A stretch of 64,000 nt of DNA. Source: Arenicellales bacterium. Lineage in GTDB: Bacteria; Pseudomonadota; Gammaproteobacteria; Arenicellales; JAJDZL01. Position 1 is the stretch's first letter. Every line of letters starts with the position of its first letter. The notes beneath the pieces were generated by a model. That model did not search any database. It saw nothing but the letters and a program-made list of their open reading frames with translations, and was not told where the DNA came from. The position numbers were made by a program, and so were the translations under genes. Location of the stretch: the NCBI GenBank assembly GCA_965200425.1, contig CBDAUA010000001.1, positions 7,271 to 71,270 of the forward strand, written 5' to 3'. Below are positions 7,033 through 58,970 of the stretch, piece after piece.

Positions 7033-7049
7033 ACAATATTGCCACAACT

Positions 7050-9143: not shown

Positions 9144-9160
9144 ACAATATTCCCACAACT

Positions 9161-9451: not shown

Positions 9452-9468
9452 ACAATATTCCCACAACT

Positions 9469-9759: not shown

Positions 9760-9776
9760 ACAATATTCCCACAACT

Positions 9777-11910: not shown

Positions 11911-11927
11911 ACAATATTGCCACAACT

Positions 11928-14100: not shown

Positions 14101-14117
14101 ACAATATTGCCACAACT

Positions 14118-27109: not shown

Positions 27110-27224
27110 TAAATCTCCGACCTAGTTTTCAGCAAATGCTTCATCTTTTTCACCAGCTCGAATATTTCAAAGTCATTCACACTGAGAAAGTTAACAATCG
27201 TCATAGCAAGCAATCTTCGGTTGA

Positions 27225-29807: not shown

Positions 29808-29844
29808 TGAATCGACCTTCGTTCAATTTGACTTTGAGTAAAAC

Positions 29845-29882
29845 AAAAAAAGGGGAGAGACTGATTTTCTCTCCCCTTTTTT
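29845..29882. terminator. Intrinsic terminator/stabilising hairpin between the binding-protein gene and the permease genes
   Basis: A7-GGGGAGAGA-ctgattt-TCTCTCCCC-T6. Confidence 0.8.
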
Positions 29883-29898
29883 CTATCTGTAGATGAAT

Positions 29899-31194
29899 TT
29901 ATACGGTACGCAGACCCAAATCTTTCATGTGTCTGATCAAAACACTGGTATTTTCATCAAGCCATAGTGCAAGGTTACCGAATTCTTGAATACGAGCTCT
30001 ACCGTCTTCGACGACAACAACAGGCCAGCCACCTATAAGAACATTGTTTAATCCCCAAAGTGATGCCCCCCACCAATTACCGCCTCCGAAAACGAACCTT
30101 TGATGATTGCTCGTCATGTAATTCGCGACAACTTCTGACTCGACGCTACCTGAAGCTTGGGCATTTTCAATCCAATTCAGTAATATCACTGGATATTCCC
30201 AAGCGACAGCAGACCAGTCATTTGGATGATCTTTGCGGAAGGCAGCGTCAAATCCCGCAGCGTCCGGAAAATTAATTCTATCGTCTGCCAAAGCGGGATC
30301 ATCAAAATCAGGGAATTGGAAAATCGTACCGTTCACGAAATCAACGCTCGTTTTAGCGATAATTTCATGGTAGTAGTCGAGTGTGCAAGATATGATCTTG
30401 CCCTGAAAACCTTGATGATAGAGCTGCTCCATAATTGGAGTGACGTAAAAACTCGTAGCCATGCAGAAAATATCCGGATTCTTGGCGAGCACGGAACTGA
30501 CTATAGGTGCAAAGTCAGTTACATCAAAACCATGCAGGTTGGTATCCACGACCTCAATACCAGCGACTTCGAACGCCGCTTTATAAGTTGCAGTAGACTG
30601 TAACCCGTACTCCGCGTCATTGTTGGTTACGATTACGGCAGTTTTTGCATCAGGAAAATTTCTCGCCAGCCACTCTACTCCAGTCACGTTGTACAGAGGA
30701 TGTGATTCACAGGTTGCAACTAGGTACTTTGATTCGGGAGTAATATCACTTGGCAATAATGTAGTTGTCAGTACTTTCTTTCGTGTAGCCCAGGGTAATA
30801 CGGCACCAACAGTTGCGCCTCCCAACATCATGACCATTTTCGCGTCATCTTCAAGCACAAGCTTTTTCATTCCTTGTACCGCTTGGGCGGTATCGTAGCC
30901 GTGATCATAGGTAGCGACATTGATATCGTATGTTTCGCCACCGATTCGGACGCCACCTGCAGCATTTATGTTATTTGCGATAATTTCGCAACCATAAGAT
31001 CCTGGCAAACCCCAGGGAGCCAAATCACCCGTCATTGGAATATTCATTCCAACCGTTAGTGTTTTGTTAGCGGAATATGCTCGACTAGGAATAATACTCG
31101 CAGCAGTAGCGGTAGTGGCACCAGCAGCTACCTGTTTTAAGAACTTTCGCCTTGATGGATGTAATAGTTTACTTTCCATAATTTTTACCTTCAT
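29899..31194 (-). CDS. Liv-type ABC substrate-binding protein with Tat signal
   Basis: SRRKFLK twin-arginine leader; PMTGDLAPWG...INAAGGV. Confidence 0.9.
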   Translation of the reverse strand: MKVKIMESKLLHPSRRKFLKQVAAGATTATAASIIPSRAYSANKTLTVGMNIPMTGDLAPWGLPGSYGCEIIANNINAAGGVRIGGETYDINVATYDHGYDTAQAVQGMKKLVLEDDAKMVMMLGGATVGAVLPWATRKKVLTTTLLPSDITPESKYLVATCESHPLYNVTGVEWLARNFPDAKTAVIVTNNDAEYGLQSTATYKAAFEVAGIEVVDTNLHGFDVTDFAPIVSSVLAKNPDIFCMATSFYVTPIMEQLYHQGFQGKIISCTLDYYHEIIAKTSVDFVNGTIFQFPDFDDPALADDRINFPDAAGFDAAFRKDHPNDWSAVAWEYPVILLNWIENAQASGSVESEVVANYMTSNHQRFVFGGGNWWGASLWGLNNVLIGGWPVVVVEDGRARIQEFGNLALWLDENTSVLIRHMKDLGLRTV

Positions 31195-31375
31195 TGAGTT
31201 ACTTCAACTAATTCTATTATCACATAAAGTAATATTACGTGTTAAATTCTCGCATGCCTCAAATCGAATTAACGTTGAAAAACAACTAAATCATAGATTG
31301 ATAATCCATCGTTATAATCTAATTATGAATTGAAGAATTTAACTCAATAGATTTGAACAATACTGGAGTAATTAC

Positions 31376-32713
31376 ATGACACGAGTAGCAATAATTGGAG
31401 CCGGACCATGTGGTTTAGCACAGTTACAAGCATTTGCATCAGCAGAAAAAAAAGGAGCAACGATTCCTGACGTTGTGTGCTATGAGAAACAGAGCGACTG
31501 GGGTGGCTTATGGAATTACACTTGGCGAACTGGTACGGATGAATATGGAGAGTTAATCCACGGTAGTATGTACCGTTATTTATGGTCCAATGGACCAAAG
31601 GAGTGTCTGGAGTTTGCGGACTACACGTTTGAACACCACTTTGGTAGACCCATTCCTTCGTTTCCACCTCGTGCTGTATTGGCCGACTACATCAAAGGTC
31701 GATCTGAAACCGCAGGCGCCCGTAAGTTTTGTAAGTTTTTGAATTCTGCCCACTGGGTAACATACAACGAGAGTGACGAAAATTTCTCCGTCACAATGAG
31801 AGATTTAGCCAACGCCTCACTGGTAACCGAAGAGTTTGATTATGTTGTTGTGGCGACAGGTCACTTTTCAGTTCCCAACGTTCCAAACTTTAAAGGATTT
31901 GACACATTTAACGGACGACTTCTACACGCTCACGATTATCGCGATGCGAGAGAATTCGCGGGAATGGATGTTTTAATCATCGGTACTAGTTACTCAGCAG
32001 AAGACATCGCATCCCAGTGTTACAAATACGGTGCAAAATCCCTAACAATTAGTCACCGAACTGCAGCTACCGGCTTCCACTGGCCTGACTCTTTTGAAGA
32101 AGTTCCATTGTTAACGCATGTCGAAGGAGATGATGCTTACTTCAAAGATGGCACCAGTAAGCATATCGATGCGATTATCTTATGCACTGGGTACCTTCAT
32201 CATTTTCCTTTCATGGACGAAGATCTACGACTAAAAACTACGAACCGCATGTGGACACCTGGACTATATAACGGTGTCATTTGGGAAAAAAATCCAAAGG
32301 TGATGTATCTAGGGATGCAGGATCAGTACTACACTTTTAACATGTTTGACGTGCAAGCCTGGTATGTACGAGATGTCATTATGGGCCGCATCGAATTACC
32401 TTCAGCTGAAGAAATGCAACAGGATAGTCAAGCTTGGCTTGATCGAGAAGCCACCCTTGAAAACTATGAGCATGAAATTTGGTTTCAAGGTGACTATGTT
32501 CAGAAGCTACTTGATCAAAGCGATTATCCAAATTTTGATGTACAAGGTATTAACAATACTTTTATGGATTGGGAACACCACAAGCATGACGACATCATGG
32601 GATATCGAGATAACGGACACCGTTCACTCATGACACGTAACATGCAACCCGTTCATAACAAGGTATGGTTGGAAGCGATGGACGATAGTCTGGAGTCGTA
32701 TTTAGGGGCCTAG
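31376..32713 (+). CDS. tmm: Trimethylamine monooxygenase (bacterial FMO)
   Basis: GAGPCG, WGGLWNYTWRTG, SMYRYLWSNGPKECLEFADY, FNGRLLHAHDYR and IGTSYSAEDI. Confidence 0.93.
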   Translation: MTRVAIIGAGPCGLAQLQAFASAEKKGATIPDVVCYEKQSDWGGLWNYTWRTGTDEYGELIHGSMYRYLWSNGPKECLEFADYTFEHHFGRPIPSFPPRAVLADYIKGRSETAGARKFCKFLNSAHWVTYNESDENFSVTMRDLANASLVTEEFDYVVVATGHFSVPNVPNFKGFDTFNGRLLHAHDYRDAREFAGMDVLIIGTSYSAEDIASQCYKYGAKSLTISHRTAATGFHWPDSFEEVPLLTHVEGDDAYFKDGTSKHIDAIILCTGYLHHFPFMDEDLRLKTTNRMWTPGLYNGVIWEKNPKVMYLGMQDQYYTFNMFDVQAWYVRDVIMGRIELPSAEEMQQDSQAWLDREATLENYEHEIWFQGDYVQKLLDQSDYPNFDVQGINNTFMDWEHHKHDDIMGYRDNGHRSLMTRNMQPVHNKVWLEAMDDSLESYLGA

Positions 32714-32833: not shown

Positions 32834-33233
32834 CAACTGACTTCCAATAATCAACTGAGATTCTGAAATTATTTCAGAATGACTTATTGGATTTGCGGCC
32901 TTCCTCATGCACGATAAATAACAAGAAGAAACGTTATCGATTAGCAAGCAAAATTCATTTGAAGGGTGTAAAGGAAAGAAGGCTAAACTGGTGATATGTA
33001 GCCTCTGCAATCGATCCGACTAGTGCAATCAGAAGGTAGATTTTGACTGAAGCTTCCTCGAGTTTAAGGATTTATTCAGTGCGACAGTATTTCAAGTACC
33101 AATCTGTCAACGAAATAGCTGAGTGTAAAGCTATTGATTCATGGTTCCCTTTACCCGATTGCCCAATCTTTCGAGGCCTTATCCAACAATCAAATTAATT
33201 TGTGTGATGACAAGTTGAGGGGATCAAATTCCA

Positions 33234-36200
33234 ATGTCTGAAGTTCAAGGTCTAACGAACGCCAACGAATTTTATAGTAGTCACTATTTCTCAGTCATTT
33301 TTCCGAATAAGCTGGACACGACTATTCGAAAGTGGAACAAAGAAGTTGAGCAAACGGGTACGGGTGTCAAGGCAAGGCAGCTGGTTGATGAGATTCGAAA
33401 GTTAGCGCCGCTTTACCGTGAGTTTCTAAACAAATTCAAGCAAGCCGAACGCAGCCAAGCTGAGCGCTGGGCATTACAGCGTGACTGGTATTGTGAATTC
33501 TTAAGCAAGTTGGGATATGAATGCATTCCTCGAACTTTGTCTGTTGATGGTGTTGAAGTTCCTATTTTTCACAAAGAAGTTGACGAAAGTGGTTATGACC
33601 GTTTTTTGATTCTAGCTGCCTTCGATGCGGACGCGAGTGACGAAGATCCATTGTCATTGCGACCTCATAAAGTTCAGTTCGAACCAGATCCACTATTTGC
33701 AGAGGATTTGCTTGATTGGTCCTGGCAGCGCGTGATCGATGAGTATATTTTTTCGCAAGTTCATCCGCCGCGGTGGGTGTTGCATTTGTCGTACTCGCAG
33801 ATGATATTGATTGACCGTACAAAATGGCCGATGCAACAATATCTGCGATTTGATCTAACTGAAATCTTCGATCGACTAGAACGATACGCGTTGGCTGCGA
33901 TCGTGTTAATGTTGCACCCGAAAGGGATTGGTTTGAGACAGGCTTCAAGTGGTTTTCTTGATGGTTTGGAACAAGATAGTCATCGTCATGCTTATAGTGT
34001 GTCGACCGATTTGAAGTATGCCATGCGCGAAGCAATTGAATTGATTGGCAATGAAGCGATTTGGTATTTGCAGCAGAATCGAATGCAAGGCAGACTTGAT
34101 GACCAGCTCGCCAGGCAATTAAGTCGTGAAAGTCTGCGCTACCTGTATCGTTTGTTGTTTTTGCTGTATCTAGAAGCCCGCCCGAACTTAGGCTATGTGC
34201 CGATGAATTCAGAGACCTTTGTCAGTGGCTATAGTTTAGAAAGTTTGCGCGAGTTAGAAATGGTTCAGTTGACCACAGAACGTTCTCGCACCGGCTATTT
34301 TCTGCATGAAAGTATCGAGCAATTGTTCCGCTTGGTGCGTGAAGGACTTCAACCAAGTACTGAGCACCAAGAGGATTTGCATGCCGATGCAGAATCGTTT
34401 CAGATTCGTGCTGTGGATGACAAATTATTTGCTCGTCAGTCCTTAGAAATTCTCAGCCAAGTGAAGTTTCGCAATTTCATCTTACAAAGAGTTATTAGAC
34501 TCTTATCGCTGACGAGACCGGATAGTAAAGCACACAAGAAACGAGGTCGCATTTCGTATTCACATTTGGGGATCAACCAGTTGGGGTCAGTGTATGAAAC
34601 CTTACTTCCATACCGAGGTTTTTTCGCCAAGGAGGACTTGTATGAAGTGTGCCGAAAAAACGTCAGCCCTGACATCTTAGATGTCGCGCATTTGGTAAAT
34701 GTGGACGATTTGCAAGACTATGATGAAGCTGAACGTGTATATGAAGATCAGCAGAAAACGATATTACGAAAGTATTCAAAAGGACGATTTATCTATCGCT
34801 TGGCCGGTAGAGAAAGAACCAGTAGTGGTAGTTTTTATACTCCTGAATCACTGACCCAGTGTGTCGTGAAATATAGCTTAAAAGAAGTAATTCGCGAGGA
34901 GATGACAGCAGCGGAGATATTGAAGCTGACGGTCTGTGAACCGGCCATGGGTTCTGCTGCATTTATCAATGAAGCGGTCAATCAATTGGCAGAGGCCTAT
35001 CTTGCGCGACGCCAACGCGAACGAAAGCTCAAAATCGAGCGCAAAGACTATGTGGATGAACTACAGAAAGTTAAACGTTACATTACCGACCGAAACGTAT
35101 TTGGAGTCGATTTAAATCCAGTCGCCACCGAATTAGGCGAGTTATCGATGCGTCTTAATTGTATGTATCAAGATGGACAGTCACCGTGGTTTGGTTTTCA
35201 AGTTTATTGTGGGAATTCGCTGGTAGGGGCGCGTCAGGAGTTTTTTCGAACAACTGAACTTGCAGAGAAGAATTGGTACAAGAAGACTGCAATTCGAGTC
35301 GATTCAGGCAGATCTGGAAAACTTGAACTACCCGAAGAATGCATCTACCATTTTCTTTTACCTCATCCAGATATGCTGAGCCAGACAGCGAATAAAAAGT
35401 TAAAGCAGTTTCTCGAGCCCTCGATCGTACAGTTATTTGCCCAAAGAAAGAAGGAGTTTAAAAATGCGTGCTCTGGCCATGAGCTGAATCAATTGCAACG
35501 AATTTCATCCATTTTGGATGTACTGTGGCAACGACAGGCCGCGCAACTGGCGCAAAGTCGGAAAGGCACACAAGACCAAATGGAAGTTTGGGGCGCCGAA
35601 GTCAAGGGCGACAATCATACGGAATACTCTGACAAAGATCGGTATCTTGAAAACTTTAATCCAACGAAGGAAAACCATCCTATAACAGAATACCAAATAC
35701 TCAAACTGGTGATGGACTACTGGTGTGCGATGTGGTACTGGCCGCCTATTGCCTCTCCCCCCCCCCCAACGAGAGCCGAATACATTCACGACTTGATGAC
35801 ATTGGTGTCGTTTCGAAGTAAGGATGACCGAGAGCTTCAATCTGAGGATTTAATTGTATTCGGAGAGGGCAAAGAATTAGAGCAAAAACTACGATCTCTC
35901 AAACAGCAGCAAGGCTATGTTTCTTTCAAGGACCTATTGACAAATATTCCAAGATTGAAGCTGGCGCATAAACTTGCCAAAAAGTATCGATTTTTTCATT
36001 GGGAGCTAGAGTTTGCAGATATTTTTCTAAGTAAATCGAACGATGGTGAGAGCCGAGGAGGCTTTGATCTAGTCATAGGAAATCCACCCTGGATCAAGTT
36101 AGAATTCAAAGAACAAGATGTGCTGGCAGAGTTTGAACCGAAAATCTGGGTTCGTAAAATGTTGGCAAGCAATGTCACAGCCTTTAGACCGACATTGTTT

Positions 36201-38132
36201 CAAAAACACCCAGACGCGAAGGATGAGTTAATTGAACACGGAACCAATATGCTGTGTACCCAACAATTTTTAAATTCAGAACAAAACTATCCATCCCTCA
36301 AAGGCCAGCCAACGAATTTATACAAAGCCTTTATCGGTCAGAGTTGGTGGTTTTCAAACAGACGGGGGGGGGCAAGCGGATTGCTCCATCCAAAAGATGT
36401 TTTTGATATAGTCAAGGGCGACAGCTTTCGGCAAGTAGCTTATCCTCGACTACGTTACCAATTTCGCTTTCATAATGCTTTTAAACTATTTCCTGACGTT
36501 GGCCACAGAGCACAATTTGCCGTCAACATTTACTCAAAGCCCAAGGAGGAGCTAGGTTTTGACCTGATTTCTAATCTTTATCTGCCAAAGACGATTGACG
36601 CTAGCTATCTTCATAGTGGTAGTGGTGACATCCCAGGTATCAAAGACAGAAAGAACCAATACAACACTTCGCCTCATAAAGCACGTGTAATTAAGATTGA
36701 TAAATTGATTCTTGAAGATTTCGCGGCAGTCGTTAATCGAGCCGGACAGCAGCAGCACACAGTTCCGATATTGGAATTACATTCTACTGAGCTGCTGTCA
36801 GTGATCAAAAAATTTGCACAGATCCCAAATCGACTAGGAAATTTAAGCGAAGACGTCCACGTTTACTGGCATTGGCATGAAACAGGTGCCCAAAAGGACG
36901 GCACCATTCGTAGACAAACTCAGTTCATAGAAGAACCAACGAAGTTCATCTACTCCGGCCCACATTTTTTCGTCGGCAATCCATTTGCAAAAACACCTCG
37001 TGCTGTCTGCCTAGCCAAAAACCACTACGATGCTTTGGATCTATCTTATATCCCCGATGATTATTTGCCACGCACGAACTATGTGCCGGCTTGTAATACC
37101 ATCGAATACGACACTCGAACTCCAAATACACCATGGACCGATGAGGACGAGATTCGAATCAAAACGACTCAATACTATCGCGTGTTGTTTCGAAGAATGA
37201 TTCATCCCGCATCTGAGAGAACTCTCATCTCAAGTTTGGTTCCGAAAGCTGTAGCGAGTATAGACGCGTGTACCACAGTGGTCTTTCGAAGCTGTAAAGC
37301 TGCAGTTGAATTTGCTGGCCTTTGTAATTCAATTGTGTTGGACTACTTCACCAAATGTTCTGGTGTAACCCACGCAAATAAAAGTACATTGGATCAATTA
37401 CCCGTACTCGGAATTAAAATGAATGTACAGTTACGCTCTGCCTTAATCGTAAGAGCATTGATTTTGAGCTGTCTTAGCTCGCACTATCGTGGACTATGGG
37501 AGTCACTATGTCAGCTCAAGGTCGACATGACTCGAACCAAGACATTAGACTCGACCAATCGCGTTAGCTATTTAGAGTTATTCCAGCACGACGCATGGAC
37601 CATTACAGACCCGCAAATTGACGCTGAATTCTTTTCCCAGCTGACCCCGCATTGGCAAAGAAATGTCGCACTACGTTCAGAACGCATGCGCCGCCAAGCT
37701 CTAGTTGAAACCGATGTACTAGTCTCGATGGCCTTTGGCTTTACTTTGGATGAACTACTCGCTATGTATCGAATTCAGTTTCCGATATTACAAAAATATG
37801 AAAACGAAACTTGGTATGATGCAAAGGGTCGTATAGTCTACACATCCAAATTAGGATACAAAGCAGCACCGTCCAAAGCGGTTAAGAATGACAACAATTG
37901 GAGCATATGCACAAATGTTCGAACCGAGAACAATATCGCATTAGGCTGGGAAGACATCAAAGATCTTGAAGAAGCTGTGGTGACTCAACAAGTTCTCGAC
38001 AACACTCTTGCAGGCGAGCCAGTAGAGCGAACCATTGAATATCGAGCTCCATTTTCGAAATGTGACCGGGAACAAGATTATCGTCAGGCTTGGGAGGTAT
38101 TTTCTGATCGGTTTTCTAGCGAACAAGCCTAG
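33234..38132 (+). CDS. Large N6-adenine DNA methyltransferase (Eco57I/type IIG-like, DISARM DrmMI-like), paralogue A
   Basis: GSFYTPESLT, CEPAMGSAAF (SAM binding), FGVDLNP, FFHWELEF, GFDLVIGNPPW (catalytic) and TNLYKAF; long C-terminal target-recognition region. Confidence 0.9.
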   Translation: MSEVQGLTNANEFYSSHYFSVIFPNKLDTTIRKWNKEVEQTGTGVKARQLVDEIRKLAPLYREFLNKFKQAERSQAERWALQRDWYCEFLSKLGYECIPRTLSVDGVEVPIFHKEVDESGYDRFLILAAFDADASDEDPLSLRPHKVQFEPDPLFAEDLLDWSWQRVIDEYIFSQVHPPRWVLHLSYSQMILIDRTKWPMQQYLRFDLTEIFDRLERYALAAIVLMLHPKGIGLRQASSGFLDGLEQDSHRHAYSVSTDLKYAMREAIELIGNEAIWYLQQNRMQGRLDDQLARQLSRESLRYLYRLLFLLYLEARPNLGYVPMNSETFVSGYSLESLRELEMVQLTTERSRTGYFLHESIEQLFRLVREGLQPSTEHQEDLHADAESFQIRAVDDKLFARQSLEILSQVKFRNFILQRVIRLLSLTRPDSKAHKKRGRISYSHLGINQLGSVYETLLPYRGFFAKEDLYEVCRKNVSPDILDVAHLVNVDDLQDYDEAERVYEDQQKTILRKYSKGRFIYRLAGRERTSSGSFYTPESLTQCVVKYSLKEVIREEMTAAEILKLTVCEPAMGSAAFINEAVNQLAEAYLARRQRERKLKIERKDYVDELQKVKRYITDRNVFGVDLNPVATELGELSMRLNCMYQDGQSPWFGFQVYCGNSLVGARQEFFRTTELAEKNWYKKTAIRVDSGRSGKLELPEECIYHFLLPHPDMLSQTANKKLKQFLEPSIVQLFAQRKKEFKNACSGHELNQLQRISSILDVLWQRQAAQLAQSRKGTQDQMEVWGAEVKGDNHTEYSDKDRYLENFNPTKENHPITEYQILKLVMDYWCAMWYWPPIASPPPPTRAEYIHDLMTLVSFRSKDDRELQSEDLIVFGEGKELEQKLRSLKQQQGYVSFKDLLTNIPRLKLAHKLAKKYRFFHWELEFADIFLSKSNDGESRGGFDLVIGNPPWIKLEFKEQDVLAEFEPKIWVRKMLASNVTAFRPTLFQKHPDAKDELIEHGTNMLCTQQFLNSEQNYPSLKGQPTNLYKAFIGQSWWFSNRRGGASGLLHPKDVFDIVKGDSFRQVAYPRLRYQFRFHNAFKLFPDVGHRAQFAVNIYSKPKEELGFDLISNLYLPKTIDASYLHSGSGDIPGIKDRKNQYNTSPHKARVIKIDKLILEDFAAVVNRAGQQQHTVPILELHSTELLSVIKKFAQIPNRLGNLSEDVHVYWHWHETGAQKDGTIRRQTQFIEEPTKFIYSGPHFFVGNPFAKTPRAVCLAKNHYDALDLSYIPDDYLPRTNYVPACNTIEYDTRTPNTPWTDEDEIRIKTTQYYRVLFRRMIHPASERTLISSLVPKAVASIDACTTVVFRSCKAAVEFAGLCNSIVLDYFTKCSGVTHANKSTLDQLPVLGIKMNVQLRSALIVRALILSCLSSHYRGLWESLCQLKVDMTRTKTLDSTNRVSYLELFQHDAWTITDPQIDAEFFSQLTPHWQRNVALRSERMRRQALVETDVLVSMAFGFTLDELLAMYRIQFPILQKYENETWYDAKGRIVYTSKLGYKAAPSKAVKNDNNWSICTNVRTENNIALGWEDIKDLEEAVVTQQVLDNTLAGEPVERTIEYRAPFSKCDREQDYRQAWEVFSDRFSSEQA

Positions 38133-38362
38133 CTTCGTTAAGGCATGCCTCCTTCTGTTGTCGCTTTTCGGAAATTCTCAGATCACTGAAAGACTTTATC
38201 GCGAGTGATTTCTGACATTCCAATCCAAAACCTTCTAAATTAAAAAGACGATATTCTGAATCTACACCAAAGTCAAGGGAGATGTTCGTCTTGCGACAGC
38301 TCAGTTTGATTGAAATATCGAGCGAAACTACATACAATATTCACAAAATGATCAATTGGGGG

Positions 38363-38709
38363 GGGGGTGACTTGGTTTCGACGCGAGTTACAAAGCCGTT
38401 GGAGCATGTCGAGGTGCAGCTGCCTCGTTAATCTTGCTGCAATTCAATAGTTGCCAACGACGACAACTACACTTTAGCGGCTTAGCTGCTAAGCTCCGTG
38501 ATTACCTTGTCTGGATGGTTTGAAACGGGGTCATATAAGCCAGGCTAGTTTACAGTAAGCGTCTTGTTAAGCTGTGAGTGAAAATTTGACGAGACAACTA
38601 CTTTTAGATTTGTCTATTCAGTCTAACTGTGTGAAAAAATTCAATAGACTAAGCATGTAGTGGCCGGCGAGTAGAGGGCTAACGGACGCGGGTTCAATTC
38701 CCTCCACCA
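38363..38709 (+). ncRNA. ssrA: tmRNA; tag (A)ANDDNYTLAA*
   Basis: 5' GGGGGTGACTTGGTTTCGAC, tag ORF GCCAACGACGACAACTACACTTTAGCGGCTTAG, CTAAGCATGTAG and 3' GGACGCGGGTTCAATTCCCTCCACCA. Confidence 0.95.
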
Positions 38710-39225
38710 AATTGTTTGTTCTAAACCATCCTTTGTTATTTTTCCAGATTTAGATCAGACGAACACTTCAATAATTTGTATTTGGAGTTTGAGTAATATC
38801 CAAGCTTAATCGGTACGGTGATAAGAGGACGTTCGCAAAATAGGATGTCCGGTAGAAAAGTCTTGGTATATATACGACTGCTTAAACAACAATCTAAACT
38901 GGATTACCTAAACGCATTCGCAAGTACGCGTGGGGCAGTACTTTGTAGTGGAACTGAGTCAGAGGTTGGTGAAAGAACTATTTGGCGGGTTCAGCACTAT
39001 GGATGACTAGCCTTCTGATTAACTCTCTTTGTCGAAGAACATTGATCGATTTTTAGATTCAGCAGTGAGTGCGACAGTATTTCAAATACCGGACCGTCAA
39101 CGAATTTGCTGAGTGTAGGGTTATTGATCCATGGTTACCTTTGCCCGCCGTTTGCGCATTCTTAAGATTTCCTTACCCGACGATCAAGTTGATCTGTGTG
39201 AGAACTGTTGAGGTAACAAATCCTA

Positions 39226-42200
39226 ATGCCTGAAATTCAAGGTCTAACGAACGTCAACGAATTTTATAGTAGTCACTACTTTTCAGTCATCTTTCCGCAT
39301 AAACTCGATACCACTATTCGCGAGTGGAACAAAGAAGTTGCGCAAACGGGGACAGGTGTCAAGGCAACGCAGCTGGTTGATGAAATTCGAAAGTTAGCGC
39401 CGCGTTACCGTGAGTTTCTAAACAAATTCAAGCAAGCCGAACGAAGCCAGGCTGAGCGCTGGGCATTACAGCGTGACTGGTATTGTGAATTCTTAAGCAA
39501 GTTGGGATATGAATGCATTCCTCGAACTTTGTCTGTTGATGGTGTTGAAGTTCCTATTTTTCACAAAGAAGTTGACGACAGTGGTTATGACCGTTTTTTG
39601 ATTCTAGCGGCCTTCGATGCGGATGCCAGTGACGAAGATCCATTGTCATTGCGACCTCATAAAGTTCAGTTCGAACCAGATCCACTATTTGCAGAGGATT
39701 TGCTTGATTGGTCCTGGCAGCGCGTGATCGATGAGCATATATTTTCGCAAATTCATCCCCCTCGGTGGGTGTTGCATTTGTCGTACTCGCAGACGATATT
39801 GATTGACCGTACAAAATGGCCAATGCAAAAATATTTACGGTTTGATTTAAGTGAAATCTTCGATCGACTAGACCGATACGCATTAGCTGCGATGGTGTTA
39901 ATGTTACACCCGAAGGGGATCGGGTTAAGACAGGGCTCAAGTGGCTTTCTGGATGGATTGGAACAAGATAGTCATCGTCATGCTTATAGCGTGTCAACCG
40001 ATTTGAAGTATGCCATGCGAGAGGCGATTGAATTGATTGGCAATGAAGCGATTTGGTATTTGCAGCAGAAGGGAATGCAAGGCAAACTTGATGACGAGCT
40101 CGCCACGGAACTAAGTCGTGAAAGTCTGCGCTACCTGTATCGTTTGTTGTTTTTGCTGTATCTAGAAGCCCGCCCGAACTTAGGCTATGTGCCGATGAAT
40201 TCAGAGACCTTTGTCAGTGGTTATAGCTTGGAGAGTTTGCGCGAGTTAGAAATGGTTCAGTTGACCACAGAACGTTCTCGCAACGGCTATTTTCTGCATG
40301 AAAGTATCGAGCAATTGTTCCGCTTGGTGCGTGAAGGACTTCAGCCAAGTACTGAGCACCAAGAGGATTTGCATGCCGATGCAGAATCGTTCCAGATTCG
40401 TGCTGTGGATGACAAATTATTTGCTCGTCAGTCCTTAGAAATTCTCAGCGAAGTGAAGTTTCGTAATTTCATCTTACAAAGAGTCATTCGACTGTTATCG
40501 CTGACGCGCCCTGGAAGTAAAGTGCACAAGAAACGAGGTCGCATTTCGTATTCACATTTGGGGATCAACCAGTTGGGGTCAGTGTATGAAACCTTACTTC
40601 CATACCGAGGGTTTTTCGCCAAGGAGGACTTGTATGAAGTGTGCCGAAAAAACGCCACTCCTGACATTTTAGATGTGGCACATTTGGTGAATGTGGATGA
40701 ATTGGCAGACTACGGTGAAGCTGAACGTGTATATGAAGATCAGCAGAAAACGATATTACGAAAGTATTCAAAAGGACAATTTATCTATCGCTTGGCCGGT
40801 AGAGAAAGAACCAGTAGTGGTAGTTTTTATACTCCTGAATCACTGACCCAGTGTGTCGTCAAATATAGCTTGAAAGAGCTAATTCGCGAGGACATGACGG
40901 CTGCAGAAATATTGAAGCTGACGGTCTGTGAACCGGCCATGGGCTCTGCGGCGTTTCTCAATGAAGCGGTCAATCAATTGGCGGAGGCCTATCTTGAGCG
41001 ACGCCAACGCGAACGAAGGCTCAAAATCGAGCGCAAAGACTATGTGGATGAACTACAGAAAGTCAAACGTTACATCACCGACCGAAACGTATTTGGAGTC
41101 GATTTAAATCCAGTTGCCACCGAATTAGGTGAGTTATCCATGCGTCTTAATTGTATGTATCGAGATGGACAGTCGCCGTGGTTTGGTTTTCAAGTTTATC
41201 TCGGAAATTCTCTGGTCGGAGCGCGTCAGGAGTTTTTTCGAACGACTGAACTTGCAAAGAAGAATTGGTACAACAAGACTTCATTTCGAGTCGATTCGGG
41301 TAGCTCTCGAGATGCAGTAGCAGCCGAATTCATGCGTGCCGAAGATAGTATCTACCACTTTCTTTTACCTCATCCAGATATGCTGAGCTATACAGCGAAT
41401 AAAAAGTTCAAGCAGTTTTTCGAGCCCTCGATCGTACAGTTATTTACCCAAAGAAAAAAAGAGTTCAAAAAAGCGTTTTCTGCACATGAGCTGAATCAAT
41501 TGCAACGAATTACATCCATTTTGGATGTACTGTGGCAACGACAGGCCGCGCAACTGGCGCAAAGTCGGCAAGGCACACAAGACCATATGGAAGTTTGGGG
41601 CGCCGAAGTCAAGGGCAACAAACAGACGGAATACTCTGACAAAGATCGGTATCTTGAAAGCTTTAATCCAACGAAGGAAAACCATCCTGTAACAGAATAC
41701 CAAATACTCAAACTGGTAATGGACTACTGGTGTGCAATGTGGTATTGGCCGCCTATTGCCTCTCCCCCCCCCCCAACGAGAGCCGAATATATTCACGACT
41801 TGATGACATTGGTATCGTTTCGAAGTAAGGATGACCGAGAGCTTCAATTTGAGGATTTATTTCTATCTACAGAAAAAAAAGAACTGACGCAGAAACTGCG
41901 TTCTCTCAAACAGCAGCAGGGCTATGTTTCTTTGAAGAACCTATTGACAGCAGTTCCAAGATTGAAACTGGCGCATAAACTTGCTAGAAAGTATCGCTTT
42001 TTTCATTGGGAGCTAGAGTTTGCAGATATCTTTCTAAGCAATAAGAACGACAGTCAGAGCCGAGGAGGCTTTGATCTTGTCATAGGAAATCCACCCTGGA
42101 TCAAGTTGAATTTCAAAGAACAAGATGTGCTGGCAGAGTTTGAACCGAAAATCTGGGTTCATAAAATGTCAGCAAGCAATGTCACAGCCTTAAGACCGAC

Positions 42201-44136
42201 ATTGTTTCAAAAACACCCACAGGCAAAGAATGAATTAATTGAGTACGGAACTTATATGCTGTGTACCCAACAATTTCTAAACTCAGAGCAAAACTATCCA
42301 TTCCTCGAAGGCCAGAAAACCAATTTATACAAAGCCTTTATCGGTCAAAGTTGGTGGTTTTCAAAAAGGGGGGGGGTGAGCGGATTGCTCCATCCAAAAG
42401 ATGTTTTTGATACAGTCAAAGGCGACAGCTTTCGTCAACAAGCTTATCCTCGACTACGCTACCATTTTCGATTTCATAATGCTTTGAAACTATTCCCTGA
42501 CGTTGGCACCTCAAGACAATTTGCTGTCAACATTTATTCAAAACCCAAGGAGGAGCTAGGTTTTGACCTGATTTCGAATCTTTATCTGCCAAAGACGATT
42601 GACGCTAGCTATCTTCATAGTGGTAGTGGTGACATCCCAGGTATCAAAGACAAAAAGAACCAATACAACACTTCGCCTCATAAAGCACGTGTCATCAAGG
42701 TTGATAATTTGGTTCTTCAAGATTTCGCGGCAGTCGTCAATCGATCCAGCCAGCAGCTGCACAAAGTTCCGATATTGGAATTACATTCTACTGAACTGCT
42801 GTCAGTGATCAAAAAATTTGCACAGCTCCCAAATCGACTAGGAAATATTTACGAAGACGTTCACGTTTACCGGCATTGGAATGAAACAGGTGCCCAAAAG
42901 GACGGCACCATTCGTAGACAAACTCAGTTCGTCGCAGAGCCAGCACAGTTCATCTACTCTGGTCCACATTTTTTCGTCGGCAATCCATTTGCAAAAACAC
43001 CTCGTGCTGTCTGTCTAGTCAATACTCACTACGATGCTTTGGATTTAACCTATATACCCGATGACTACTTGCCACGCACGAACTATGTGCCGGCTTGTGA
43101 TGCTGACGAGCACGACACTCGAACTCCGAATACACCATGGACTGATGAGGACGAGATTCGAATCAAAACGACTCAATACTATCGCGTGTTGTTTCGAGAA
43201 ATGGTTCATCCCGCATCTGAGAGAACTCTCATCTCAAGTTTAATTCCGAAAGCTGTAGCGAGTATACTCACCTGTAATACAGTAGTCTTTCGAAGCAGTC
43301 AAGCTGCAGTTGAATTTGCTGCACTTTGTAATTCAATTGTGTTGGACTATTTCACCAAGTGTTCTGGCGTAACCCACGTAACTAAAAGTACATTGGGGCT
43401 ATTACCCGTACTCGGAATTAAAATGAATGTACAGTTACGCTCTGCCTTAATCCTAAGAGCATTGAACTTGAACTGTCTTAGTTCGCACTTTGGTGAATTA
43501 TGGGAGTCACTATGTCAGCTCAAGGTCGACATGACTCGAACCAAGACATTAGACTCTACCAATCGCGTTAGCTATTTGGAGTTATTCCAGCGCGACACTT
43601 GGACCATTACAGACCCGCAAATTGACGCTGAATTCTTTTCCCAGCTGACACCGCATTGGCAAAGAAATGTCGCGCTACGTTCAGAACGCATGCGCCGCCA
43701 AGCTCTAGTTGAAACCGATGTCCTAGTCGCAATGGCATTTGGCTTTACTTTGGATGAACTACTCGCAATGTATCGAATTCAGTTTCCGATAATACAAAAA
43801 TATGAAAACGACACTTGGTATGATGCAAAGGGTCGTATTGTCTACACATCCAAATTAGGATACAAAGCAGCACCGTCCAAAGCGGTTAAGAATGACAATA
43901 ATTGGAGCCTATACACTCGTGTTCAATCTGAGACCAATATCGCGTTAGGCTGGGCAGACATCAAAGATCTTGAAGAAGCTGTGGTGACTCAACAAGTGAT
44001 CGATAATACTCTTCCGGGTGAGCCAGCTGAACGAACCATTGAATATCATGCTCCATTTTCGAAATGTGACCGGGAACAAGATTATCGTCAGGCTTGGGAC
44101 GTGTTTTCTGAACGGTTTTCAACCGAACGAGTTTAG
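39226..44136 (+). CDS. Large N6-adenine DNA methyltransferase, paralogue B
   Basis: Same motifs as paralogue A; colinear and highly similar over the full length. Confidence 0.9.
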   Translation: MPEIQGLTNVNEFYSSHYFSVIFPHKLDTTIREWNKEVAQTGTGVKATQLVDEIRKLAPRYREFLNKFKQAERSQAERWALQRDWYCEFLSKLGYECIPRTLSVDGVEVPIFHKEVDDSGYDRFLILAAFDADASDEDPLSLRPHKVQFEPDPLFAEDLLDWSWQRVIDEHIFSQIHPPRWVLHLSYSQTILIDRTKWPMQKYLRFDLSEIFDRLDRYALAAMVLMLHPKGIGLRQGSSGFLDGLEQDSHRHAYSVSTDLKYAMREAIELIGNEAIWYLQQKGMQGKLDDELATELSRESLRYLYRLLFLLYLEARPNLGYVPMNSETFVSGYSLESLRELEMVQLTTERSRNGYFLHESIEQLFRLVREGLQPSTEHQEDLHADAESFQIRAVDDKLFARQSLEILSEVKFRNFILQRVIRLLSLTRPGSKVHKKRGRISYSHLGINQLGSVYETLLPYRGFFAKEDLYEVCRKNATPDILDVAHLVNVDELADYGEAERVYEDQQKTILRKYSKGQFIYRLAGRERTSSGSFYTPESLTQCVVKYSLKELIREDMTAAEILKLTVCEPAMGSAAFLNEAVNQLAEAYLERRQRERRLKIERKDYVDELQKVKRYITDRNVFGVDLNPVATELGELSMRLNCMYRDGQSPWFGFQVYLGNSLVGARQEFFRTTELAKKNWYNKTSFRVDSGSSRDAVAAEFMRAEDSIYHFLLPHPDMLSYTANKKFKQFFEPSIVQLFTQRKKEFKKAFSAHELNQLQRITSILDVLWQRQAAQLAQSRQGTQDHMEVWGAEVKGNKQTEYSDKDRYLESFNPTKENHPVTEYQILKLVMDYWCAMWYWPPIASPPPPTRAEYIHDLMTLVSFRSKDDRELQFEDLFLSTEKKELTQKLRSLKQQQGYVSLKNLLTAVPRLKLAHKLARKYRFFHWELEFADIFLSNKNDSQSRGGFDLVIGNPPWIKLNFKEQDVLAEFEPKIWVHKMSASNVTALRPTLFQKHPQAKNELIEYGTYMLCTQQFLNSEQNYPFLEGQKTNLYKAFIGQSWWFSKRGGVSGLLHPKDVFDTVKGDSFRQQAYPRLRYHFRFHNALKLFPDVGTSRQFAVNIYSKPKEELGFDLISNLYLPKTIDASYLHSGSGDIPGIKDKKNQYNTSPHKARVIKVDNLVLQDFAAVVNRSSQQLHKVPILELHSTELLSVIKKFAQLPNRLGNIYEDVHVYRHWNETGAQKDGTIRRQTQFVAEPAQFIYSGPHFFVGNPFAKTPRAVCLVNTHYDALDLTYIPDDYLPRTNYVPACDADEHDTRTPNTPWTDEDEIRIKTTQYYRVLFREMVHPASERTLISSLIPKAVASILTCNTVVFRSSQAAVEFAALCNSIVLDYFTKCSGVTHVTKSTLGLLPVLGIKMNVQLRSALILRALNLNCLSSHFGELWESLCQLKVDMTRTKTLDSTNRVSYLELFQRDTWTITDPQIDAEFFSQLTPHWQRNVALRSERMRRQALVETDVLVAMAFGFTLDELLAMYRIQFPIIQKYENDTWYDAKGRIVYTSKLGYKAAPSKAVKNDNNWSLYTRVQSETNIALGWADIKDLEEAVVTQQVIDNTLPGEPAERTIEYHAPFSKCDREQDYRQAWDVFSERFSTERV

Positions 44137-44451
44137 CTTTTGAGACATGCTTACTGCTGTTGTCGCTTCGGAAATTCTCAGGTTACTCAAAGACTTTATC
44201 GCGAGTCTGCATTAGAACATAAATCAAGGAATCGACAAAATTCTAATTCATCTCTCGTCCCTACAATCTGTTGATACGACTTGGATGCCACAAACTTGAT
44301 TATGCAATTGCATGAGTAATTTACTATGTTTCAGTATAAGCACCTCATAACAAAAATGCCGCATGATTGGCAGTTGCAATAAGCAGTCGAGTAGGTAGTC
44401 AATACTCCCACCAGCCGCGTTTACCGCCCACCATGGCATCATCGACTTCGA

Positions 44452-44754: not shown

Positions 44755-45153
44755 TCAATTTCCGGTCCTTACTTTGCCATATTCATGATCGAGTTCGATC
44801 AGTGGATGTGTTTCAGCACACTGGAATTTAACCAAAAGCTCTCGAGCAATCATGTCTCGATCTTGTTGATTTTCAGGCAATTCCATGTCCTGAGGAACCT
44901 GTACCCAACCGTTGATGTTTCGGTCAAATACCGCCGGCCGATTTTCTTCGTACCCTAAATGTACGTCTTCTAACCAATTCAGATCGTCCCATCCCATAAA
45001 TTCAACGTATTTTTGGAGAAATGGTGTAATCCGAGTATAGTCAGGTACAAGATTGACATCATACCGATAACCAATATGCTGTCCAATCTCTGCTTGACGT
45101 GCAGCTGTCGAGGCACCCTGCGCTTGTCGACTAATATTCATTACTTTTTCCAT
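44755..45153 (-). CDS. Hypothetical protein, last gene of the mgs operon
   Basis: 132-aa ORF 10 nt downstream of the mgsC-like gene and followed by a terminator. Confidence 0.75.
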   Translation of the reverse strand: MEKVMNISRQAQGASTAARQAEIGQHIGYRYDVNLVPDYTRITPFLQKYVEFMGWDDLNWLEDVHLGYEENRPAVFDRNINGWVQVPQDMELPENQQDRDMIARELLVKFQCAETHPLIELDHEYGKVRTGN

Positions 45154-45163: not shown

Positions 45164-46537
45164 TCAGTATCGAGTCATATCGGGCTGGCCAACAGTATAT
45201 TGAGTGCCTGCCAAGGGCACCATTGCCATGGCTGAAGCTTCCATAGTCAACGCTGCTAGATCTTCTGGTTCTAACGAGTGAACATCAGTCTTACCACAAG
45301 CTCGAGCCATCATTTGACACTCAATGGCAAGTGTATGTAGAAAATTGTACACACGCTCGGCAGCATCATCGGGATTCAATCGTTCTCTTAATTTTGGATC
45401 CTGAGTTGCTACTCCGACTGGACAACGACCAGTATGACAGTGATAACAATATCCTGCTTCGACACCAATTTCGTTTTCAAAATCAGCCTCTGGGATGTCC
45501 TTATTGCAGTTTAACGCCATTAGTGCGGAGTGACCGATGGCTACCGCATCCGCCCCTAGAGCCAAAGCTTTCGCTAGATCACCACCGTTTCGAATACCAC
45601 CAGCATAAATGAGAGAAATCTCCCCAGTCTTATCAACATCATCCAAGGCCTTTCTCGCCTGTCGGATTGCAGCGATTCCGGGTACTCCAGTTTCTTCCGT
45701 CGCCAAATGTGGACCAGCGCCAGTCGATCCTTCCATTCCGTCAATGTAAATCATGTCTGGGCCGGTTTTTGCTGCCATCCGAACATCGTCATACACTCTG
45801 GCGGCGCCCAACTTCAACTGAATGGGAATTTGCCAATCGGTAGCTTCTCGTATCTCTTCGATTTTCAGTGCTAAGTCATCAGGACCTAGCCAGTCAGGAT
45901 GACGCGCGGGTGAACGTTGGTCAATACCAGCTGGCAATGATCTCATTTCCGCCACTTGATCGGTGACTTTCTGTCCCATCAAATGTCCGCCTAGACCGAC
46001 TTTACAACCCTGGCCGATGAAAAATTCCACTGCATCGGCTAATCGTAAATGATGTGGATTAAATCCATACCGAGATTGGATGCACTGATAGAACCACTTA
46101 GTCGAGTAACGTCGTTCATCGGGGATCATGCCACCTTCACCAGAACATGTGGCAGTTCCTGCCATCGTGGCACCTCGAGCCAGCGCAGTCTTCGCTTCGT
46201 AAGACAATGCTCCGAAGCTCATACCTGTGATATAGACTGGTATATCCAATACTAAAGGTCGCTTTGCGCGTGGACCCAGTACAGTCTTAGTCACACAGCG
46301 TTCTCGATAGCCTTCGATTACAAATCTTGTCAATGTTCCCGGAAGAAAAGTTAATTCGTCAAATGTCGGAATTTTCTTAAAGAGTGAAAAACCCCGCATT
46401 CGATAGCGGCCCAACTCAGATTTGATATGGATGTCATCGATAACTTCGGGAGAAAATATCCTGCTTTGACCTAAATTGCTTGTATCCCGCCGTACTTTAG
46501 GAGGACCGGGTGGTGTAGTTTTGGGTTTTGCTTCCAT
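45164..46537 (-). CDS. mgsC: N-methylglutamate synthase FMN subunit (MgsC/GlxD-like)
   Basis: MSFGALS, SGEGGM, GQGCKVGLGGHL and CYHCHTGRCPVGVATQDP. Confidence 0.82.
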   Translation of the reverse strand: MEAKPKTTPPGPPKVRRDTSNLGQSRIFSPEVIDDIHIKSELGRYRMRGFSLFKKIPTFDELTFLPGTLTRFVIEGYRERCVTKTVLGPRAKRPLVLDIPVYITGMSFGALSYEAKTALARGATMAGTATCSGEGGMIPDERRYSTKWFYQCIQSRYGFNPHHLRLADAVEFFIGQGCKVGLGGHLMGQKVTDQVAEMRSLPAGIDQRSPARHPDWLGPDDLALKIEEIREATDWQIPIQLKLGAARVYDDVRMAAKTGPDMIYIDGMEGSTGAGPHLATEETGVPGIAAIRQARKALDDVDKTGEISLIYAGGIRNGGDLAKALALGADAVAIGHSALMALNCNKDIPEADFENEIGVEAGYCYHCHTGRCPVGVATQDPKLRERLNPDDAAERVYNFLHTLAIECQMMARACGKTDVHSLEPEDLAALTMEASAMAMVPLAGTQYTVGQPDMTRY

Positions 46538-46551
46538 ATTCTTTCTGCCCT

Positions 46552-48314: not shown

Positions 48315-48328
48315 AAAATAGCCTCTCC

Positions 48329-58103: not shown

Positions 58104-58146
58104 ACGATTAAACTCTCCTCGATTAACTCTGTCAGCAATGTAATTG

Positions 58147-58458: not shown

Positions 58459-58482
58459 AATTTAATTCCTCATCAATTCGTT

Positions 58483-58959: not shown

Positions 58960-58970
58960 AAGAGCACCTC

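What the first reader, a model, noticed from the sequence alone, without database searches (positions are those of the whole stretch)
33079..44206. Twin giant adenine methyltransferases in direct repeat around tmRNA, differing at clustered putative specificity loops
Seen: two ~5.1-kb direct repeats (~33079-38205 and ~39069-44206, including ~150 bp of shared upstream and ~60 bp of shared downstream sequence) bracket ssrA. The proteins are almost identical in long blocks. In the C-terminal third they differ in short clusters: DVGHRAQF/DVGTSRQF, YWHWHETG/YRHWNETG, CLAKNHY/CLVNTHY, FRRMIHP/FREMVHP, SIDACTT/SILTCNT and THANKSTLDQ/THVTKSTLGL. Established: in single-chain MmeI/LlaGI/PglX-like enzymes, such short loops set the recognised bases. 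Inference: two specificities from one scaffold, able to re-assort loops by gene conversion. Crossover between the repeats would delete ssrA, which may lock both copies in place.
Basis: partly seen in the sequence, partly recalled or inferred. Interest (0 to 1): 0.75.

Follow-up and report, generated by a model that had tools for sequence, protein, structure and literature searches.

The report
Solo ArmB methyltransferase twins flanking tmRNA
Two diverged copies of a giant DNA-methyltransferase gene, which normally belongs to the four-gene ARMADA anti-phage system, sit alone on either side of the tmRNA gene, appear to belong to a larger recombining gene family in this genome, and carry slippery C and G runs that could switch them on and off.

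Summary
The repeat is real. Windows 33078-38206 and 39068-44206 are 91.3% identical. Each holds one intact ORF (1632 and 1636 aa, 89% identical), and the two flank a tmRNA gene. The proteins are not MmeI/LlaGI-type enzymes. They are full-length homologues of ArmB, the PglX-like N6-adenine methyltransferase of ARMADA type II. All 16 other homologue loci examined sit beside ArmA/ArmC/ArmD-type helicase genes; the 64-kb window has none. The pair is part of a bigger family: database bookkeeping places at least five full-length paralogues (84-90% identical) on the same 606,801-bp contig, and they are statistically mosaic. The twins differ along their whole length (33/69/69 differences by thirds; dN/dS 0.25), not only in the C-terminal third. 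A new point is that both copies hold an in-frame C11 and a G9 tract, absent from 16 of 16 operon armB genes. This suggests phase variation, as in pglX. Different specificities remain untested, and the 'ssrA lock' has no support.

The parts
33078..33233 (+). shared 156-nt leader of copy 1 (the repeat starts sharply at 33078)
33234..38132 (+). copy 1: solo ArmB-like N6-adenine DNA methyltransferase gene, 1632 aa (P0001)
33807..33827 (+). LIDRTKW in the N-terminal domain. D194 and W198 are invariant across 9 aligned ArmB N-termini. It is a possible nuclease-like motif, not shown to be one.
34938..34964 (+). SAM-binding motif EPAMGSAAF (aa 569-577)
35757..35767 (+). C11 homopolymer inside the ORF (codons 842-845, PPPP); candidate slipped-strand switch
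36081..36092 (+). catalytic motif NPPW (aa 950-953)
36364..36372 (+). G9 homopolymer inside the ORF (codons 1044-1047)
36111..37673 (+). aa 960-1480: the zone that is hypervariable among E. coli ArmB alleles (putative target-recognition region).
38133..38206 (+). shared 3' tail of copy 1 (the repeat ends sharply at 38206)
38310..38338 (+). promoter-like site upstream of tmRNA (TTGAAA-17-TACAAT, 10 of 12)
38363..38709 (+). tmRNA gene (ssrA). It has a 6-nt gap against the consensus in the T-stem/acceptor 3' strand and is preceded by a G10 run at 38358-38367.
   Evidence: not called by ARAGORN
39068..39225 (+). shared leader of copy 2
39226..44136 (+). copy 2: solo ArmB-like methyltransferase gene, 1636 aa (P0002)
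41764..41774 (+). C11 homopolymer in copy 2 (codons 847-850)
42368..42376 (+). G9 homopolymer in copy 2. Its flanking codons differ from copy 1, but the run is kept at 9.
42118..43677 (+). copy 2 equivalent of the ArmB hypervariable zone (aa 965-1484)
44137..44206 (+). shared 3' tail of copy 2

Best explanation
The two repeats are diverged copies of a 5.13-kb single-gene unit. Each encodes a stand-alone homologue of ArmB, the PglX-like gamma-class N6-adenine DNA methyltransferase and presumed specificity component of the ARMADA type II defence system.

Shown:
- Both genes are intact, keep the SAM-binding and NPPW motifs, and are under purifying selection.
- They lack the ArmA, ArmC and ArmD partners within 64 kb.
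- They belong to a tight, lineage-specific clade of paralogues that are mosaics of one another.
- Both copies carry C11 and G9 runs built from the rarest Pro and Gly codons.

Inferred:
- Each copy is transcribed from its own conserved leader.
- Each copy methylates its own short, probably non-palindromic, motif.
- Gene conversion among the paralogues shuffles alternative alleles of the recognition loops.
- Slippage in the C and G runs turns single copies off and on. A population would then carry a changing set of m6A marks, for defence, for escape from others' restriction, or for regulation.
- The position around ssrA is incidental.
For: Family:
- Pfam finds Eco57I plus N6_Mtase. PADLOC model PDLC03614 scores E 4.7e-242 and 2.4e-244 over residues ~175-1632.
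- tblastn against plasmids gives 39 records, 28 of them covering >=80% of the query at 30-42% identity.
- 10 of 10 distinct homologue loci opened, plus 6 of 6 further E. coli alleles, lie next to a ~950-aa SNF2 helicase gene. In the 10 loci opened with wide flanks, a ~2100-aa DEAD+DUF1998 helicase (split into two ORFs in L009) and a UvrD helicase are also present.
- This is the armABCD arrangement described in bioRxiv 10.1101/2025.09.15.676423 and PMC13463889 (passages read).
- In the E. coli plasmid homologue, G605 lies in EPAMGSAAF and N971 in NPPW. These are the residues mutated in ArmB in that preprint.
- Fold search of residues 500-1632 hits M.BseCI, CamA, M.TaqI and PglX/BrxX at E 3e-6 to 4e-5.

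Solo:
- No helicase appears among the 38 neighbouring ORFs scanned.
- tblastn of 19 ArmA/ArmC/ArmD-type proteins against the window gives nothing better than E 0.25.

Functional:
- dN 0.053, dS 0.216, dN/dS 0.25. The motifs are intact.

Family and mosaicism:
- P0001, P0002, P0003, P0004 and P0149 (84-90% identical) are all booked to a 606,801-bp contig, as is the window's LeuC.
- The nearest neighbour switches between 150-residue segments.
- The maximum chi-square test gives p<=0.05 in 15 of 30 triplets, five of them at 0 of 500 permutations.
- The five paralogues show five distinct haplotypes built from re-used loop alleles.
- The solos form a clade nested among operon ArmBs.

Recognition zone:
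- 305 of 357 variable columns among 7 E. coli ArmB alleles map to residues 960-1480.
- Within that zone, 57 of the 67 twin differences fall on those columns (odds ratio 4.7, p 1e-6).

Tracts:
- The window has 5 G/C runs >=9, against 0.14 expected.
- Synonymous-codon shuffles recreate C>=9 in 5 and 7 of 1000, and G>=9 in 3 and 0 of 1000.
- 0 of 16 operon armB genes have a G/C run >=8.
- Three relatives' fragments change frame exactly at the C run, in both slippage directions, and one at the G run.

Precedents (passages read):
- A G tract in pglX drives Pgl phase variation (PMC4365076).
- Point changes in the PglX recognition domain change the motif (PMC11341690).
- DrmMI methylates ACACAG without the rest of DISARM (bioRxiv 10.1101/2021.12.28.474362).
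Against: - No methylation data exist, so both different motifs and activity of a solo ArmB are inferences. PglX does not methylate without its partners (PMC11341690), and ArmB alone has not been tested in the passages read.
The DNA of the other copies was not seen.
- Twin differences are only mildly enriched in the recognition zone: 67 of 171 differences in 32% of the length, against 305 of 357 in E. coli.
- pN tracks pS (rho 0.60, p 2e-4). This fits patches of different ancestry and does not need selection on specificity.
- Positions variable in E. coli may simply be weakly constrained.
- 16 of the 20 premature ends in relatives' fragments lie away from the two tracts. Assembly errors at homopolymers would also produce the four that coincide.
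- The structure model is poor around the catalytic motifs (pLDDT 30-50 at model residues 123-163 and 439-468).
Confidence: 0.55

Rival explanations
1. Interchangeable specificity subunits. The solo copies are alternative ArmB modules that work in trans with a single ArmA/ArmC/ArmD machine encoded elsewhere in the genome. Switching or recombining copies would then retarget one ARMADA system.
For: - All four ARMADA proteins are needed for defence, and armB is the variable gene among 426 E. coli islands (PMC13463889, passages).
- PglX needs its partners to methylate (PMC11341690).
- The solos keep the full ArmB architecture, including the N-terminal domain.
Against: - No arm partner or remnant lies in the 64 kb.
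- ARMADA type II is reported to have a strict gene order (preprint passage).
- 16 of 16 other loci keep armB beside armA.
- The rest of the genome could not be searched.
Confidence: 0.2
2. These are self-contained single-chain Type IIG/IIL restriction-modification enzymes (MmeI/DrdV-like) that cut with an N-terminal nuclease and methylate with the same chain. Two copies would give two specificities.
For: - The best PADLOC models are labelled Type IIG.
- Residues 30-240 fold confidently into an alpha/beta domain.
- The best fold matches for that domain are the DrdV chains, with probability 0.72-0.99 for the first six matches (0.41 for a seventh chain), followed by NucC and restriction-endonuclease-like proteins.
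- The genes stand alone.
Against: - Fold E-values are only 0.011-0.14, with TM 0.18-0.20 on the query.
- No Pfam MmeI or nuclease domain reaches E<=0.01.
- Only D194 and W198 of the candidate motif are invariant, and its spacing (D-x-x-K) is not the classical (D/E)-x-K.
- In the family's normal setting the nuclease is assigned to ArmC (preprint passage).
Confidence: 0.12
3. Functionless leftovers. The copies are duplicated debris of a lost ARMADA island, drifting and converting one another, and the homopolymer frameshifts in relatives are decay or sequencing error.
For: - Relatives hold many truncated copies, with 20 premature ends at scattered positions.
- The genome shows other tandem gene arrays.
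- pN and pS co-vary.
Against: - Two 4.9-kb ORFs remain intact despite dS 0.22, with dN/dS 0.25.
- The catalytic motifs are intact.
- The G9 run is kept while its flanking codons changed.
Confidence: 0.08

Closest known systems
ArmB of ARMADA type II (armABCD; E. coli NCTC 12900, ATCC 8739, EDL933)
   Same: - Full-length collinear homology (30-42% identity, up to 100% coverage).
- Same SAM-binding and NPPW motifs at matching positions.
- The same zone is variable between alleles.
   Different: - No armA, armC or armD nearby.
- Several paralogues per genome instead of one.
- Differences are spread over the whole protein.
- C11 and G9 tracts are absent from 16 of 16 operon genes.
PglX/BrxX of BREX and Pgl
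   Same: - Fold-level match (8q56, 8c45, 9ewz).
- A C-terminal recognition region in which single residues set the motif.
- Phase variation through a G tract in pglX (PMC11341690, PMC4365076, passages).
   Different: - The NCBIfam BREX_1_MTaseX score is 24.6 bits for copy 2 (no match listed for copy 1) against a cut-off of 500.
- No brx genes nearby.
- About 400 residues longer, with a large insert between motifs I and IV.
DrmMI of class 1 DISARM
   Same: - PADLOC DrmMI models match the methyltransferase core (E 1e-44).
- DrmMI methylates a non-palindromic site and does so without the DISARM core.
   Different: - The match covers only parts of the protein.
- No drmD/A/B/C genes nearby.
MmeI/DrdV Type IIL enzymes
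   Same: - Single chain with an N-terminal alpha/beta domain, a helical linker, a gamma-class methyltransferase and a recognition domain.
- DrdV is the best fold match of the N-terminus.
   Different: - The nuclease motif is not established.
- No sequence-level match to any solved structure.
- 1.7 times the size.
Phasevarions and shufflons of Type III mod and Type I hsdS genes
   Same: Repeat-driven on/off switching and recombination among alternative recognition modules. This comparison is from my own knowledge; one search gave listings only.
   Different: - Here whole 4.9-kb genes are the units.
- No invertase or inverted repeats were found.

Membership tests
ARMADA type II ArmB | Full-length homology to the methyltransferase encoded in armA-armB-armC-armD operons | tested here: met
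   28 of 39 plasmid records cover >=80% of P0001. The solo clade is nested among operon proteins in the tree.
ARMADA type II ArmB | SAM-binding GxG motif and NPPW at the positions mutated in ArmB (G605, N971) | tested here: met
   EPAMGSAAF and NPPW are present in both copies. In the E. coli homologue they lie at 601-609 and 971-974.
ARMADA type II ArmB | Gene lies in an operon with the ArmA (SNF2), ArmC (YprA/DUF1998) and ArmD (UvrD) helicases | tested here: not met
   No helicase among 38 ORFs of the window. tblastn of 19 Arm proteins gives a best E of 0.25. The rest of the genome was not seen.
ARMADA type II ArmB | Required for anti-phage defence | not testable with these tools
   Needs genetics.
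Type IIG/IIL (MmeI-like) restriction-modification enzyme | N-terminal PD-(D/E)XK nuclease with catalytic residues | tested here: inconclusive
   Confident alpha/beta domain. DrdV is the best fold hit at E 0.011-0.14. Only D194 and W198 are invariant. No Pfam nuclease or MmeI domain.
Type IIG/IIL (MmeI-like) restriction-modification enzyme | Gamma-class methyltransferase and recognition domain in the same chain, with the gene standing alone | tested here: met
Type ISP (LlaGI-like) | Helicase-like ATPase domain between the nuclease and the methyltransferase | tested here: not met
   No helicase or ATPase family among the Pfam hits at E<=0.01.
BREX PglX | Reaches the NCBIfam BREX_1_MTaseX cut-off and has brx neighbours | tested here: not met
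   24.6 bits for copy 2 (no match listed for copy 1) against a cut-off of 500. No brx genes nearby.
DISARM class 1 DrmMI | Full-length match to DrmMI models and drmD/A/B neighbours | tested here: not met
   The best DrmMI model scores E 2.5e-44 in three short stretches, against 4.7e-242 for the best model overall. No drm genes nearby.
Simple-sequence contingency (phase-variable) gene | In-frame homopolymer of 9 or more bases, beyond chance | tested here: met
   C11 and G9 in both copies, with 5 runs against 0.14 expected. Synonymous shuffles recreate them in 0-7 of 1000.
Simple-sequence contingency (phase-variable) gene | Tract length varies within or between populations and changes the frame | tested here: inconclusive
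   3 of 20 truncated relatives break at the C run (both frames) and 1 at the G run. Sequencing error is not excluded, and no reads were available.
tmRNA (ssrA) | Match above the Rfam gathering score, with an intact tRNA-like domain | tested here: inconclusive
   165.9 bits against 47. However, the T-stem/acceptor has a 6-nt gap and non-standard pairs, and ARAGORN is silent.

The most novel reading that the evidence does not exclude
This genome has turned the specificity gene of a multi-gene defence system into a free-standing, recombining, phase-variable multigene family. Five or more full-length ArmB genes would each be switchable through C/G runs, and their recognition loops would be re-dealt by gene conversion. 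The family would act either as a combinatorial methylome generator or as a set of plug-in targeting subunits for one ARMADA engine. It would be a whole-gene analogue of hsdS shufflons.
Probability: 0.2. Interest if true: 0.8.

Novelty: new variant of a known kind. Interest (0 to 1): 0.6.

Why it matters
- ARMADA was described only in 2025-2026, and how ArmB sets its target is not known.
- A natural series of closely related ArmB proteins that differ at a few dozen positions is a ready-made map from residues to recognised bases. The same positions vary among E. coli alleles.
- Stand-alone, multi-copy, possibly phase-variable ArmB genes would show that a defence-system methyltransferase can leave its operon and live as an orphan or trans-acting enzyme.
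- This bears on how methylomes diversify and on how annotation pipelines label such genes. Here the label is 'Type IIG'.

Tried and rejected
- Genomic island at ssrA: no second copy of the tmRNA 3' end, no further tmRNA fragment, and no integrase among the ORFs scanned.
- Mobile element: no terminal inverted repeats at the unit ends.
- Sequence relatives with solved structures: none for the two family profiles or for P0001, even at E 10. One chance-level hit appeared.
- Phage-borne homologues: only one 9%-coverage hit in 50,697 phage records.
The other paralogues and the ~45%-identical metagenomic group were therefore never seen as DNA.
- Organism: a LeuC search gave no named close hit, so taxonomy was left open.
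- Mapping differences onto a protein-DNA model: model coordinates are not exposed and no DNA docking tool is on hand. I used secondary structure and E. coli allele variation instead.
- Loop-targeted positive selection: not supported. No 100-codon window has dN/dS above 0.56, and pN follows pS.
- bioRxiv supplements (the ARMADA domain tables) were closed, and they may say what the ArmB N-terminal domain is.
Full report
**1. The observation**

- blastn aligns 33078-38206 with 39068-44206 at 91.27% identity over 5154 columns. The repeat finder gives the same register, with start-to-start spacing of about 6.0 kb.
- Each copy holds one long ORF: 33234-38132 (1632 aa, P0001) and 39226-44136 (1636 aa, P0002). 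They share 1461 of 1637 aligned residues.
- Similarity starts sharply 156 nt before the start codons and ends sharply about 74 nt after the stop codons.
- No terminal inverted repeats mark the unit.
- Between the copies, Rfam finds a full-length tmRNA at 38363-38709 (165.9 bits), with a promoter-like site at 38310-38338.
- ARAGORN reports only a tRNA-Val elsewhere in the window.

**2. How the copies differ**

- 170 of 1631 aligned codons differ in amino acid. dN is 0.053, dS 0.216 and dN/dS 0.25, so both genes are old duplicates kept under purifying selection.
- Differences are clustered: 41 eight-residue windows have >=4 changes, against 9.6 expected, and 0 of 2000 shuffles reach 41. By thirds the counts are 33, 69 and 69.
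- Dense clusters also lie outside the C-terminal third, at residues 690-705, 869-876, 898-905 and 932-939.
- Synonymous differences are unevenly spread (chi-square 55.8, 32 df, p 0.006). Across 50-codon windows pN follows pS (Spearman 0.60, p 2e-4).
- The patches rich in replacements are therefore also older at silent sites. This is what exchange with diverged donors produces. Selection aimed at a few loops would not produce it.
- No 100-codon window exceeds dN/dS 0.56.

**3. What the proteins are**

- Pfam finds Eco57I and N6_Mtase.
- PADLOC's best models are labelled Type IIG (E 4.7e-242 and 2.4e-244), with partial DrmMI matches.
- NCBIfam hits all fall far below their cut-offs.
- No solved structure is a sequence relative.
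- An AlphaFold model of residues 500-1632 has mean pLDDT 73.9. It is poor around the catalytic motifs and about 90 from residue ~1150 onward. It matches M.BseCI, CamA, M.TaqI and PglX/BrxX at E 3e-6 to 4e-5.
- A model of residues 1-560 has mean pLDDT 67.7, about 90 for residues 30-240. It has an alpha/beta domain whose best, weak matches are the DrdV chains (E 0.011-0.14), followed by NucC and restriction-endonuclease-like folds.
- Across nine diverse N-termini only D194 and W198 of the LIDRTKW stretch are invariant. I do not regard a nuclease as shown.

**4. The family context**

- The one genome-contig scan returned a single locus, a Firmicutes MAG at 37% identity. There the homologue lies between an SNF2 helicase and a 2108-aa DEAD+DUF1998 helicase followed by a UvrD helicase.
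- tblastn against plasmids found 39 records, 28 of them near full length.
- All nine plasmid loci I opened show the same set of helicase genes. They come from E. coli, Aulosira, Pseudanabaena, Microvirga, Martelella, Cylindrospermopsis, Haematobacter, Tsukamurella and Streptomyces. The order is circularly permuted in Cylindrospermopsis.
- This is the ARMADA type II operon: ArmA helicase, ArmB PglX-like methyltransferase, ArmC YprA-family helicase-nuclease and ArmD UvrD-like helicase. It is described in bioRxiv 10.1101/2025.09.15.676423 and PMC13463889 (passages read).
- In the E. coli plasmid homologue, G605 and N971 fall in EPAMGSAAF and NPPW, the ArmB residues mutated in the preprint.
- By contrast, the window holds no helicase gene among 38 ORFs scanned and no ArmA/C/D-like coding remnant (best E 0.25). 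Its neighbours are metabolic genes.
- In a midpoint-rooted tree the window proteins and their close relatives form a tight clade on a long branch, nested among operon-borne ArmBs.

**5. Not just twins**

- An exact look-up books P0001, P0002, P0003 (1630 aa), P0004 (1646 aa) and P0149 (1636 aa), plus fragments P0136 and P0133, to a contig of 606,801 bp. The window's LeuC is booked to the same length.
- The five full-length proteins are 84-90% identical.
- Other contigs (1,524,832; 196,467; 24,561; 13,500 bp) also carry several copies or fragments each.
I did not see that DNA.
- The paralogues are mosaics. The nearest relative changes from segment to segment; for example, P0003 is 98% identical to P0144 in residues 1-150 and 100% identical to P0002 in residues 299-448.
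- A maximum chi-square test on the five same-contig proteins gives p<=0.05 in 15 of 30 triplets, five of them at 0 of 500 permutations.

**6. The 'specificity loops'**

- I used E. coli as a natural guide. 526 of 5426 complete genomes carry the locus. Seven ArmB alleles (83-93% identical) were aligned with the twins.
- 305 of their 357 variable columns map to P0001 residues 960-1480, while residues 1-840 are almost invariant.
Some states recur there, for example HWNE, and xK(G/N)HY against LN(S/T)xY.
- Within the zone, 57 of the 67 twin differences fall on E. coli-variable columns (odds ratio 4.7, p 1e-6).
- In the model the six clusters sit in loops, hairpin turns or strand ends. Five of them lie in segments with pLDDT about 80-94.
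- The five same-contig paralogues show five different combinations of a small set of loop alleles. All four combinations of two alleles occur at loops 2 and 3 among the relatives.
However, the twins put only 67 of 171 differences in this zone, which is 32% of the length. That is unlike the E. coli pattern. Weak constraint could also explain the overlap.

**7.

- Both copies carry a C11 run (35757-35767; 41764-41774; PPPP) and a G9 run (36364-36372; 42368-42376).
- The window has five G/C runs >=9, against 0.14 in shuffles. Four are in these genes and one abuts the tmRNA.
- The runs use the rarest Pro and Gly codons. Synonymous-codon shuffles recreate them in 0-7 of 1000 trials.
- The codons flanking the G run differ between the copies, but the run stays at nine.
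- None of 16 operon armB genes has a G/C run >=8, and the wider family has no PPPP at that site.
- Among 20 prematurely ending relatives, three change frame exactly at the C run, in both directions, and one at the G run. Sixteen end elsewhere.
- This fits slipped-strand switching, as reported for the G tract of pglX (PMC4365076; PMC11341690). Homopolymer sequencing error is not excluded.

**8. Mechanism and rivals**

- I favour stand-alone, independently switchable m6A methyltransferases whose recognition loops are shuffled among paralogues (confidence 0.55). DrmMI, a relative, methylates ACACAG without its partners. PglX does not methylate alone, which keeps the trans-acting rival alive (0.2).
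- The Type IIG reading (0.12) rests on a weak fold match.
- Functionless debris (0.08) is contradicted by the intact ORFs and dN/dS 0.25.
- The 'ssrA lock' has no support. No island signature was found. Other copies sit elsewhere. The tmRNA gene itself lacks 6 nt of the T-stem/acceptor relative to the consensus.

**9. Novelty**

- My searches found two ARMADA papers. In the preprint, 'orphan' and 'paralog' occur 0 times.
- I found no description of solo, multi-copy or tract-bearing ArmB genes. The supplements of the preprint were closed, and subscription literature is not covered.
- I class this as a new variant of a known kind.

Noticed in passing
window 38358-38367 and 38684-38709: The tmRNA gene is preceded by a G10 run. 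In the Rfam alignment it lacks 6 nt of the T-stem 3' strand and acceptor, with non-standard pairs marked there. ARAGORN does not call it. It may be atypical, damaged or mis-assembled.
   Followed up: partly
window 5376-14660: Four tandem copies (period 2.15-2.7 kb, blocks 97-100% identical) of a unit encoding a YhgA-like (Transposase_31) protein. A 308-bp tandem repeat of 3.8 copies lies at 8863-10054 inside one of them. This is a second multigene array in the same window.
   Followed up: partly
window 24038-32713 and 45164-49804: The methyltransferase-ssrA block sits between genes that look like one methylated-amine pathway. On one side are a DUF1989-GcvT fusion, a branched-chain-type ABC transporter and a flavin monooxygenase. 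On the other are glutamate-synthase-like, GXGXG, amidotransferase and glutamine-synthetase-like genes.
   Followed up: no
window 59641-63999: An open-ended polyketide synthase gene (KS-AT-DH-methyltransferase domains) runs off the window. sox genes (SoxA, Z, Y and cytochromes c) lie just upstream at 57267-59345.
   Followed up: no
L002, L011-L016 (E. coli armB alleles): Among seven E. coli ArmB alleles, 305 of 357 variable columns fall in one 520-residue zone, and residues 1-840 are nearly invariant. This is a clean module-swap pattern that could guide motif assignment in ARMADA.
   Followed up: partly
window 44755-45153 and 51479-52702: Two ORFs (132 aa and 407 aa) have no Pfam family at E<=0.001.
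   Followed up: no
L001 14780-16165; L008 14929-15777: Some ARMADA-like operons carry an extra gene of no known family between armB and armC: 461 aa in the Firmicutes MAG and 282 aa in Haematobacter.
   Followed up: no
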